Shown piece after piece: positions 57,454 through 58,307 of a stretch of DNA of 64,000 bases. The notes below the pieces were generated by a model, which made no database searches, was not told where the DNA came from, and worked only from the letters and a program-made list of their open reading frames with translations. Each line of letters begins with the position of its first letter. The stretch's first letter is position 1. Source of the DNA: a virus (taxonomy: Duplodnaviria; Heunggongvirae; Uroviricota; Caudoviricetes); IMG/VR virus record IMGVR_UViG_3300029305_011318; one strand, 5' to 3'. The position numbers were made by a program, and so were the translations under genes.

Positions 57454-58307
57454 AAATACCTCTTATAAAGGAGTTACCCACCAATCATAATGATTGATGG
57501 GTATCACATACATGGACTATTTATAGCAACGAGAGAAAGATGCAAAACAGTAAAAACTATTTCGCAAATACAAATATTGAGATTTGAACTCATACCTATA
57601 AGAATAGGATAATCATTTGATTATTGTGAACCATTTTCACTTTATATTTGTTTTCTTAACATTATATTGTAAGCTTTAGACAGTTAGGTTATTCCATTAG
57701 GTTTATCCGCATGTCGGACTCCTTTATAGGATTCCTAACTATCTAACTTACAAATAAAATTTCATTCCGTCCTTCGACGTACTCCACTAAATACCTTGTT
57801 ATTCCACCATAGTCAAATGAGGCTGAACCTAAAAATCGTCATTTTTAAGCTTCTCAAATCTGATTTCTCAGTAAAAAACTAGTAGGATTTTACCTACAAC
57901 TTTCATCTAACATTCAGCAAAATGTTTTTCTATTAAGATATAGACAAAATATCTTCCCAAATATGACTTAGACTACTCGTACTCACCACTTTTGTTATAG
58001 TCTTCTTACGAAGGCATCAAGTCATAATCGCATTGGTTGGTATTCCTTTGAGGGATATATGCCTACCACAGCACTATATCAAAGGTTATTCTCCACAGGA
58101 GCGTCTATTGTTGCGACCAAAAGAGTGATGTGTTACAATTCAATATTTAATTTTGCACTATAAACCAGATTTTGGGATTTTCCCATTCAAACAAATTCAT
58201 TACTGAATTCGTTAAGTATTAAATAATAAACGTATCCGTCTACTATTCATACATTTTGGTTTATATCCTTGCGCCCGGTCAAGGGTCATTCACAAGGTTA
58301 AATGAAA
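57454..58307 (-). ncRNA. ~850-nt ORF-free, GC-elevated block adjacent to tRNA-Gln; candidate large structured ncRNA (GOLLD/ROOL-like). Strand assumed from context.
   Basis: No ORF of 60 aa or more in any frame across ~850 nt, inside an otherwise tightly packed element. Locally higher GC than the flanks. Many short inverted repeats (e.g. gatattttgtctatatc). Directly flanked by a tRNA and the box-2 promoter (58414..58446). Confidence 0.35.

What the first reader, a model, noticed from the sequence alone, without database searches (positions are those of the whole stretch)
57454..58307. 850-nt ORF-free, GC-elevated block next to tRNA-Gln: candidate giant structured ncRNA (GOLLD/ROOL-like)
The element is tightly packed, with intergenic gaps mostly under 150 nt, yet this stretch has no ORF of 60 aa or more in any frame. 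It is visibly richer in G/C than its flanks and contains many short inverted repeats. It sits immediately upstream (in gene order) of tRNA-Gln and a box-2 promoter. Large ornate RNAs of the GOLLD and ROOL classes are about 600-800 nt, occur in prophages of low-GC Firmicutes, and are characteristically adjacent to tRNA genes, which is the context seen here. Alternatives are an ORF-less group I/II intron remnant, a replication origin or pac region, or decayed pseudogenes.
Basis: partly seen in the sequence, partly recalled or inferred. Interest (0 to 1): 0.75.

Follow-up and report, generated by a model that had tools for sequence, protein, structure and literature searches.

The report
ROOL RNA gene beside tRNA-Gln
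The gene-free block is a clear copy of ROOL, a known large bacterial and phage RNA that self-assembles into hollow RNA-only cages and whose function is still unknown; here it sits in its usual setting, fused to a tRNA gene inside an integrated mobile element, so it is a correct call but not a new kind of thing.

Summary
Window 57454..58567 is the longest stretch without an ORF of 60 aa or more (1114 nt; the next is 523 nt). GC is modestly raised (0.327 against 0.278 for the element).

Rfam's ROOL model (RF03087) matches 58321..57748 on the minus strand over its full length, at 294 bits (gathering score 99.1, E 2e-66). GOLLD, group I/II introns, tmRNA and RNase P do not match.

On the minus strand the block reads:
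- an element-specific promoter-like motif
- tRNA-Gln(UUG), with no encoded CCA
- ROOL, whose closing helix P1 starts at the tRNA's last base
- a 73-nt stem-loop
- a degenerate tRNA-Leu(CAA)-like cloverleaf
- two terminator-like hairpins
- a signal-peptidase gene

ROOL covers about 560 of the 854 nt flagged. In phage contigs from IMG/VR, ROOL often lies between tRNAs with 0-3-nt junctions, so RNase Z and RNase P probably cut out its ends (inferred).

The host flank is Lachnospiraceae. The carrier is a low-GC integrated element of at least 70 kb with phage-type nucleotide-metabolism and RNA-repair genes.

ROOL's published structures are homo-hexameric or homo-octameric cages, and its biological role is still unknown. 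Verdict: already known class, low interest.

The parts
58415..58447 (-). Promoter-like motif CCTTTCAAAAA-N12-GTATAGTAAT. The -35-like TTTCAA is at 58445..58440, followed by a 16-nt spacer and the -10 TATAGT at 58423..58418. That puts the start of transcription about 30 nt before the tRNA.
   Evidence: Sequence read. Near-identical copies at 53026..52994 and 31550..31518, and looser copies at 39722, 34396 and 2014, are all on the minus strand. Promoter function is inferred, not shown.
58308..58379 (-). tRNA-Gln(UUG). The discriminator G is at 58308 and no CCA is encoded.
   Evidence: ARAGORN. Rfam tRNA 62.4 bits, with alignment. The 3' flank reads ...CUACCCCU-G-UUUCAUU.
57748..58307 (-). ROOL RNA. 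The Rfam hit runs 58321..57748, but its first 14 nt are the 3' end of the tRNA. The closing helix P1 pairs 58308-58300 with 57759-57767.
   Evidence: RF03087 at 294 bits, E 1.7e-66, model 1-574/574. 118 of 159 consensus pairs are canonical in the model's register. All invariant blocks are present. Covariation exceeds the controls. MFE z = -5.62, and the fold recovers P1. P1 pair probabilities are 0.79-0.94.
57918..57967 (-). AU-rich variable internal linker of ROOL. It corresponds to the loop that is disordered inside the cage in the published structure.
   Evidence: It aligns to the unconserved loop of the model between the helix GUCUAA/UUAGAU. The linker is described in PMC12286853.
57675..57747 (-). 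Long stem-loop directly after the ROOL 3' tail, with a 13-bp outer stem and no U-tract. It has no known family.
   Evidence: -28.3 kcal/mol, z = -5.65. No Rfam family at E <= 10 beyond noise. Long hairpins at the same position in L033/L063 and L045 have different sequences.
57569..57651 (-). Degenerate type-II cloverleaf resembling tRNA-Leu(CAA). The T-loop is UUCAAAU, there is a long variable arm, and the D and anticodon stems are weak. It is 24% GC.
   Evidence: Rfam tRNA 21.5 bits, below the gathering score of 29, E 0.17. ARAGORN finds it only when its threshold is lowered to 80%. The MFE is a cloverleaf-like four-way junction, z = -3.86.
57531..57566 (-). Terminator-like hairpin 1: an 11-bp stem followed by the tail UCUUUCUCUC.
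   Evidence: Consensus scan found 4 terminator-like sites in 56800..59400, against 0.7 expected. Fold.
57465..57503 (-). Terminator-like hairpin 2: a 13-bp stem followed by the tail ACUCCUUUAU. It ends about 10 nt before the ribosome-binding site of the next gene.
56950..57453 (-). Signal peptidase I (S26) gene. It marks the downstream edge of the block and is not linked to ROOL elsewhere.
   Evidence: Pfam PF10502, E 1.6e-41. None of 16 related signal-peptidase loci scanned, drawn from the 19 found in metagenomes, carries a ROOL.

Best explanation
The block is a small non-coding RNA operon on the minus strand, and its main product is a ROOL RNA (Rfam RF03087).

Shown: a full-length, high-scoring ROOL match lies at 57748..58307. 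It has the family's invariant sequence blocks, and its helices covary with other ROOLs. It is preceded with zero spacer by tRNA-Gln(UUG). It is followed by a stem-loop, a degenerate tRNA-Leu-like cloverleaf and two terminator-like hairpins.

Inferred:
- Transcription starts at the element's own repeated promoter motif (58447..58415). It yields a precursor of about 850-950 nt that ends at one of the two terminator-like hairpins.
- RNase P cuts at the 5' end of the tRNA.
- RNase Z cuts after the discriminator G58308. This tRNA has no encoded CCA, which is the usual RNase Z substrate type. That single cut would create the ROOL 5' end exactly at the base of its closing helix P1.
- The element's own CCA-adding enzyme (15635..14220) could finish the tRNA.
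- The 3' end would be set by the stem-loop, by processing at the tRNA-like element, or by both.

From published cryo-EM work on other ROOLs (PMC12286853, PMC12990946), the mature RNA is expected to fold into a flat multi-junction monomer. It would then self-assemble, without protein, into a hexameric or octameric hollow cage with the variable linker inside.

Its biological role is unknown for the whole family. The most likely reading is a phage or mobile-element RNA tied to tRNA or translation handling during infection.
For: - Rfam ROOL: 294 bits against a gathering score of 99.1, E 1.7e-66, model 1-574/574.
- Conserved blocks ACAAUAGACG, GUAC-AGUAG, CUGAAUG, UGAAAGUU and GAAUA are all present.
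- 118 of 159 consensus pairs are canonical. Most failures are in helices that re-register by 1 nt.
- On a sequence-only MAFFT alignment with 15 IMG/VR ROOLs, 64.4% of cells pair, against 38-46% when partners are slid. The covariation score is 0.295 against at most 0.177, and 0 of 500 shuffles reach it.
- MFE z = -5.62, and the fold recovers P1 on its own. P1 pair probability in the precursor is 0.79-0.94.
- tRNA|ROOL|tRNA junctions of 0-3 nt occur in L164, L165, L166, L171, L175, L183, L188 and L014. tRNA|ROOL fusions occur in L195, L193 and L208.
- The promoter motif recurs on the coding strand. Terminator-like hairpins follow the block.
- The element encodes a CCA-adding enzyme and an RNA ligase.
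- Copies 100% identical occur in three other metagenome assemblies.
Against: - No expression data exist, so the promoter, the processing sites and the transcript ends are all inferred.
- P1 after the tRNA is only 7-9 bp, against about 16 bp in the consensus.
- The score (294 bits) is lower than most of the IMG/VR ROLLs scanned here, which range from 221 to 384 bits.
- The three pseudoknots and the contacts that hold the cage together were not checked, so the number of subunits cannot be predicted. Published ROOLs form hexamers or octamers depending on small stem differences.
- No moderately diverged relative of this exact locus was found. The flanking stem-loop and the tRNA-like element therefore have no comparative support of their own.
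Confidence: 0.94

Rival explanations
1. It is a decaying ROOL relic. The sequence descends from a ROOL but no longer makes a functional RNA.
For: P1 is short, at 7-9 bp. 41 of 159 consensus pairs are non-canonical or gapped in the model's register. The score is below most phage ROOLs. The neighbouring tRNA-Leu-like element looks degenerate.
Against: The match is full-length with no large deletion, unlike L171, which is truncated to 455 nt. Every invariant block is intact. The fold has a strong z-score. The block has its own promoter motif and terminator-like hairpins. Most 'failed' pairs re-form with a 1-nt shift (hand check).
Confidence: 0.05
2. The 3' third (57454..57747) is mainly a regulatory leader for the signal-peptidase gene, acting by attenuation or read-through control. 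It would not be part of the ROOL transcript's processing.
For: Two terminator-like hairpins sit directly before the gene's ribosome-binding site. A 14-nt segment, 57731..57718, is 93% complementary to 57474..57461, next to that ribosome-binding site (pair I8).
Against: No riboswitch or leader family matches. The region contains a tRNA-like cloverleaf, which fits a tRNA/ROOL array better. Other ROOL loci also have a hairpin and then a tRNA at this position, with unrelated downstream genes. The signal peptidase is not linked to ROOL elsewhere.
Confidence: 0.12
3. It is a replication origin, a packaging site, a group I/II intron remnant or a decayed protein gene.
For: Only the absence of ORFs and the presence of many inverted repeats.
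Against: There are no iterons or tandem repeats. No intron model matches at E <= 1. BLASTN against 50,697 phage records matches only the tRNA. The inverted repeats are accounted for by the ROOL helices.
Confidence: 0.01

Closest known systems
ROOL RNA (Rfam RF03087; Weinberg et al. 2017, PMC5737381; cryo-EM structures of env-120, E. faecalis and L. salivarius ROOL, PMC12286853 and PMC12990946)
   Same: It matches the model over its full length, with the same conserved blocks, multi-junction fold and variable internal linker. It is about 560 nt, against a family mean of 581 nt. It sits next to tRNAs in an integrated mobile element of a Firmicutes host from gut or rumen-type metagenomes.
   Different: P1 is shorter (7-9 bp), and the tRNA-Gln abuts it with no spacer. 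This member is only distantly similar in sequence to the IMG/VR ROOLs sampled, with BLAST matches of 28-54 nt only. It is followed by an unclassified stem-loop and a degenerate tRNA-like element.
GOLLD RNA
   Same: It is also a large, ornate, cage-forming RNA of phages and prophages, found near or within tRNA arrays, and its function is also unknown.
   Different: Its sequence and fold are unrelated. No GOLLD match was found here at E <= 1. Some GOLLDs carry a tRNA inside the RNA. Here the tRNA sits at the 5' edge.
Phage tRNA arrays with embedded ncRNAs, such as tRNA-Trp|ROOL|tRNA-Gln in IMG/VR contigs L164-L188
   Same: ROOL is butted against tRNAs, and tRNA-Gln(UUG) is the recurrent partner.
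   Different: In those arrays tRNA-Gln lies 3' of ROOL and both flanks are real tRNAs. Here tRNA-Gln is 5' and the 3' partner is only tRNA-like.

Membership tests
ROOL RNA (RF03087) | Match to the curated covariance model above its gathering score, over the full length | tested here: met
   294 bits against 99.1, E 1.7e-66, model 1-574/574, not truncated.
ROOL RNA (RF03087) | Highly conserved nucleotide blocks of the family | tested here: met
   ACAAUAGACG, GUAC-AGUAG, CUGAAUG, UGAAAGUU and GAAUA are invariant across the window sequence and 15 IMG/VR ROOLs.
ROOL RNA (RF03087) | Conserved multi-junction secondary structure supported by covariation | tested here: met
   118 of 159 consensus pairs are canonical. 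90 pairs have changes on both sides. The covariation score is 0.295 against at most 0.177 in the slid controls, and 0 of 500 shuffles reach it. The alignment was sequence-only MAFFT, so these counts are conservative.
ROOL RNA (RF03087) | Three pseudoknots and the tertiary and quaternary kissing loops | not tested
   The Rfam structure line printed by the search shows nested pairs only. The pseudoknot positions were not mapped onto this sequence.
ROOL RNA (RF03087) | Poorly conserved internal linker | tested here: met
   An AU-rich loop of about 50 nt (57967..57918) aligns to the model's unconserved loop.
ROOL RNA (RF03087) | Typical context: near tRNAs, often in prophages or phages | tested here: met
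   tRNA-Gln abuts the 5' end. The integrase is at 61434..60049 and the host flank begins at 61740. Phage-type genes are present. No virion genes were seen, so 'prophage' itself is unproven.
ROOL RNA (RF03087) | Protein-free assembly into a hexameric or octameric cage | not testable with these tools
   This needs in vitro transcription followed by mass photometry or cryo-EM.
GOLLD RNA | Match to the Rfam GOLLD model | tested here: not met
   No hit at E <= 1 over 57200..58700 on either strand.
Group I / group II introns, tmRNA, RNase P | Match to the Rfam models | tested here: not met
   No hit at gathering score in the window or at E <= 1 in the block.
tRNA (for the element at 57569..57651) | Score above the tRNA model threshold, with a canonical anticodon arm | tested here: not met
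   Rfam gives 21.5 bits, below the gathering score of 29. ARAGORN finds it only at an 80% threshold. The anticodon stem has 3 Watson-Crick pairs. It is therefore filed as tRNA-like, not as a tRNA.
skipping-rope RNA (for the hairpin at 57675..57747) | Match to RF02924, which follows ROOL in locus L168 | tested here: not met
   No hit at E <= 10 on the 116-nt stretch.

The most novel reading that the evidence does not exclude
The tRNA-Gln may not just be a neighbour but an insertion into the 5' strand of ROOL's closing helix P1.

The leader just before the tRNA (AUAAAAUUUCUCAUUU, 58395..58380) repeats the sequence just after it (UUUCAUUU). That leader can pair perfectly over 10 bp with the ROOL 3' tail (57763..57754). 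A tRNA-less 5' strand AUAAAAUUUCAUU would pair 13 out of 13 with that tail.

If the unprocessed precursor folds this way, each cage subunit would carry a covalently attached tRNA-Gln. Together with the conserved-position 3' hairpin and the tRNA-like element, this would resemble the GOLLDs that embed tRNAs. It would point to a role in storing or displaying tRNA.
Probability: 0.08. Interest if true: 0.5.

Novelty: already known. Interest (0 to 1): 0.2.

Why it matters
It matters little for discovery. A routine Rfam scan finds this RNA, and its setting is the textbook one for ROOL.

It has some value as a clean example for people studying ROOL:
- The tRNA-Gln/ROOL junction has zero spacer, which makes a testable prediction that RNase Z creates the ROOL 5' end.
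- The carrier element encodes its own CCA-adding enzyme and RNA ligase.
- tRNA-Gln(UUG) keeps turning up as ROOL's neighbour in unrelated phage contigs.

These points could help design experiments on how ROOL is matured and whether its unknown function is tied to tRNA handling.

Tried and rejected
- BLASTN of 57300..58500 against 50,697 phage records matched only the tRNA-Gln.
- Synteny searches anchored on the downstream signal peptidase led nowhere. IMG/VR gave nothing. Metagenomes gave 19 loci at 50% identity or less over substantial matches, and none of the 16 scanned carries a ROOL. The only contigs with the identical protein are 100% identical copies, which are useless for covariation.
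- A lineage-specific ROOL pattern found nothing in IMG/VR.
- The 3' hairpin was tested as a known family, including skipping-rope. No Rfam match was found.
- I tested the idea that the tRNA is embedded in P1. The partition function gives the leader-tail helix only about 5% probability, against 79-94% for the short P1 after the tRNA. I kept it only as the low-probability novel case.
- The origin or pac-site reading fails because there are no iterons or tandem repeats.
- I checked for a second ncRNA near tRNA-Met or in the other ORF-free stretches. Rfam found nothing, and the fold z-scores are ordinary.
- I could not walk further along the 127-kb contig to look for virion genes, because look-ups are limited to proteins encoded in the window.

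Full report
**Observation**

The stretch is real and stands out.
- Inside 57454..58307 the longest ORFs are 31-41 aa.
- In my own six-frame scan, 57454..58567 (1114 nt) is the longest part of the window with no ORF of 60 aa or more. The next longest is 523 nt.
- GC is 0.327, against a mean of 0.278 (sd 0.033) for same-size windows across the element. That places it in the top 7%, so the rise is modest.
- All sizeable ORFs nearby lie on the minus strand, so the block has to be read on that strand.

**Identity**

A scan of the whole window against Rfam 15 at gathering thresholds gives three hits: two tRNAs and ROOL (RF03087). The ROOL hit is at 58321..57748, minus strand, with 294 bits (gathering score 99.1), E 1.7e-66 and model positions 1-574 of 574.

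A permissive scan (E <= 1) of 57200..58700 adds only a sub-threshold tRNA hit and one noise hit. GOLLD, group I/II introns, tmRNA and RNase P are absent.

I mapped the model's consensus structure onto the sequence.
- 118 of 159 pairs are canonical and 9 are gapped.
- The failures cluster in the outermost helices, where a 1-nt shift restores the pairing. One example is UUAAAUAUU/GGUAUUUAG. These shifts are a hand check on the output.

I aligned the sequence by MAFFT alone with 15 ROOLs recovered from IMG/VR.
- It keeps every invariant block: ACAAUAGACG, GUAC-AGUAG, CUGAAUG, UGAAAGUU and GAAUA.
- The Rfam-derived structure pairs 64.4% of cells, against 38-46% when partners are slid by 1-3 columns.
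- The covariation score is 0.295 against at most 0.177, and no shuffle out of 500 reaches it.

An unconstrained fold of 58307..57748 gives -151.6 kcal/mol, z = -5.62, and finds P1 and several consensus helices by itself. The two next-largest ORF-free stretches of the window fold no better than shuffles, with z = +0.55 and -0.80.

**Anatomy on the minus strand, 5' to 3'**

1. Promoter-like motif CCTTTCAAAAA-N12-GTATAGTAAT at 58447..58415. Near-identical copies lie at 53026 and 31550, and looser copies at 39722, 34396 and 2014. All are on the coding strand.
2. tRNA-Gln(UUG) at 58379..58308, with discriminator G58308 and no encoded CCA.
3. ROOL.
   - The model's first 14 positions were forced onto the 3' end of the tRNA, where 9 of the 16 outer P1 pairs are non-canonical.
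   - The real P1 is 58308-58300 paired with 57759-57767, at 0.79-0.94 probability in a fold of the whole precursor.
   - ROOL therefore begins at the nucleotide after the tRNA.
4. A 73-nt stem-loop at 57747..57675, z = -5.65, with no U-tract. It matches no Rfam family.
5. A degenerate type-II cloverleaf at 57651..57569 that resembles tRNA-Leu(CAA). Rfam gives 21.5 bits, below the threshold of 29. ARAGORN reports it only at an 80% threshold.
6. Two terminator-like hairpins, at 57566..57541 and 57503..57475.
7. A signal peptidase I gene at 57453..56950.

ROOL thus fills about two thirds of the flagged interval.

**Comparison with other loci**

- All 23 IMG/VR loci kept by a two-motif filter contain ROOL above threshold.
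- In L164, L165, L166, L171, L175, L183 and L188, ROOL fills the whole gap between tRNA-Trp and tRNA-Gln(UUG), with junctions of 0-3 nt.
- L014 has tRNA-Ser|ROOL|tRNA-Tyr. L195, L193 and L208 have a tRNA fused to P1.
- L033, L063, L095 and L045 have ROOL, then a long perfect hairpin, then tRNA-Gln about 97 nt downstream. The hairpins differ in sequence between L033 and L045.
- Other ROOLs end at a classical intrinsic terminator.

The arrangement here is a variant of a known theme. ROOL ends coincide with tRNA ends, which suggests, but does not prove, maturation by RNase Z and RNase P.

No moderately diverged relative of this particular locus was found.
- Contigs carrying the identical signal peptidase are 100% identical in DNA.
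- Related signal-peptidase loci, of which 16 of the 19 found were scanned, carry no ROOL.

**Carrier and host**

- A tyrosine integrase lies at 61434..60049. It is followed by TetR and AcrB genes at higher GC.
- The AcrB fragment is 87% identical to one in a Lachnospiraceae MAG. DNA homology to that MAG stops at 61740, just past the TetR gene.
- The element is about 28% GC and has all genes on one strand.
- Its genes include a CCA-adding enzyme, an RNA ligase, a metallophosphoesterase, thymidylate synthase, an NrdG-type activase, a RuvC-like resolvase and HNH endonucleases. It also encodes SPFH proteins, a bactofilin, a BspA-type leucine-rich-repeat protein, HipA-like and PcfJ-like proteins, and an 1811-aa protein with a glycine-rich domain.
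- On a 127-kb metagenome contig it continues at least 9.4 kb beyond the window start. That part holds SIR2, an NMN transporter and an intein-containing NrdD.
- No capsid, terminase or tail gene was seen. A large temperate phage is the most plausible reading, but it is not proven.

**Mechanism**

From the literature:
- ROOL averages 581 nt, occurs in several phyla and lies near tRNAs and in prophages (PMC5737381).
- Cryo-EM shows protein-free homo-octameric cages (env-120, E. faecalis) or hexameric cages (L. salivarius), with a disordered linker inside.
- No function is known. ROOL is abundant but non-essential in one L. salivarius strain (PMC12286853; PMC12990946).

My best account for this locus:
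- A precursor containing tRNA-Gln, ROOL, the hairpin and the tRNA-like element is made from the element's own promoter.
- RNase P and RNase Z release the tRNA and thereby define the ROOL 5' end at the base of P1.
- The RNA then assembles into a cage.
- Its role is probably linked to tRNA or translation handling by the mobile element.

Only the sequence features are shown. Transcription, processing, assembly and role are inferred.

**Ideas considered**

The leader before the tRNA repeats the P1 5' strand and can pair over 10 bp with the ROOL tail (pair I18). This suggests that the tRNA was inserted into P1. Thermodynamically, however, the short P1 after the tRNA wins, at about 90% probability against about 5%. 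I keep this idea only as a low-probability novel reading.

Imperfect inverted repeats also flank the whole cassette: 58538-58527 with 57451-57462, and 58509-58497 with 57476-57488. They remain unexplained.

**Verdict**

The feature is a member of an already known RNA family in its usual context. Interest is low.

Noticed in passing
window 58447..58415, 53026..52994, 39722..39690, 34396..34363, 31550..31518, 2014..1982 (all minus strand): A repeated promoter-like motif, yCTTTCAAAAA-N12/13-GTATAGTAAT, occurs in intergenic positions ahead of minus-strand genes. Three copies match with 0-1 mismatch over 21 specified bases. It is probably the element's own promoter consensus.
   Followed up: partly
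window 57569..57651 (-): A 24%-GC cloverleaf resembling a type-II tRNA-Leu(CAA). It has a good T-loop, but its D and anticodon stems are weak, and it falls below threshold in both Rfam and ARAGORN. It could be a relic tRNA or a processing handle.
   Followed up: partly
window 57675..57747 (-); L033:9669-9730, L045:559-595: A long stem-loop without a U-tract sits directly after the ROOL 3' tail. Long hairpins of different sequence occupy the same position, between ROOL and a downstream tRNA-Gln, in other phage contigs. No Rfam family matches.
   Followed up: partly
window 58395..58380 and 58308..58300 (-), with 57763..57754: The sequence UUUC(UC)AUUU is duplicated on both sides of tRNA-Gln. The leader copy pairs perfectly over 10 bp with the ROOL 3' tail, as if the tRNA had been inserted into P1. 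The partition function favours the short P1 after the tRNA.
   Followed up: partly
window 58497..58538 versus 57451..57488: Two collinear imperfect inverted-repeat blocks (11/12 and 12/13 matches) flank the whole cassette of promoter, tRNA, ROOL and tRNA-like element. One block overlaps the ribosome-binding site and start codon of the signal-peptidase gene. The meaning is unknown (I12, I13, D3).
   Followed up: no
window 58484..58551 (-): A GC-rich 10-bp stem (GAGGCAGCCG/CGGUUGCCUC) encloses a 48-nt loop and is followed by ACCUCUUUUU. It sits between the upstream gene and the promoter motif and may be the terminator of the upstream operon.
   Followed up: no
window 14220..15635, 127..1192, 2097..2873 (-); L192:10001-11066: The element encodes a CCA-adding enzyme with an HD domain, an RNA ligase that appears split into two overlapping ORFs, and a metallophosphoesterase. 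This looks like a tRNA maturation or repair set, which fits its CCA-less tRNA-Gln.
   Followed up: partly
window 60049..61740: This is the integration boundary. The tyrosine integrase is at 61434..60049, and homology to Lachnospiraceae MAG contigs ends at 61740, after the TetR gene. GC steps from about 0.25 to about 0.44. The attachment site was not located.
   Followed up: partly
L164, L165, L166, L171, L175, L180, L183, L188, L033, L045, L063: tRNA-Gln(UUG) is the recurrent immediate neighbour of ROOL in unrelated IMG/VR phage contigs, usually 3' of it. Those tRNAs are 81-91% identical to the window's tRNA-Gln over 54-80-nt BLAST matches in most of these loci (74% in L166).
   Followed up: partly
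L168:3757-3825; L195:8326-8401; L183:2059-2391 and L188:6849-7181: Other ncRNAs lie near ROOL in phage contigs. A skipping-rope RNA sits 20 nt after ROOL, a RAGATH-21 RNA sits about 170 nt before a tRNA-ROOL fusion, and group I introns occur a few kb away.
   Followed up: no
window 45489..50924 (-), 53041..54201 (-): An 1811-aa protein carries an ALK/LTK-type glycine-rich domain and a Listeria-Bacteroides repeat. A BspA-type leucine-rich-repeat protein lies nearby. These are surface-type proteins on the mobile element, and they are also its most GC-rich parts.
   Followed up: no
window 37927..38449 and 28916..29326: These are the next-largest ORF-free stretches (523 and 411 nt). They have no Rfam hit and ordinary fold z-scores (+0.55 and -0.80), so they are probably small genes or plain spacers.
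   Followed up: partly
L192:16287-19550 (beyond window start): The anaerobic ribonucleotide reductase gene NrdD of the same element is interrupted by an intein with a LAGLIDADG endonuclease domain.
   Followed up: no
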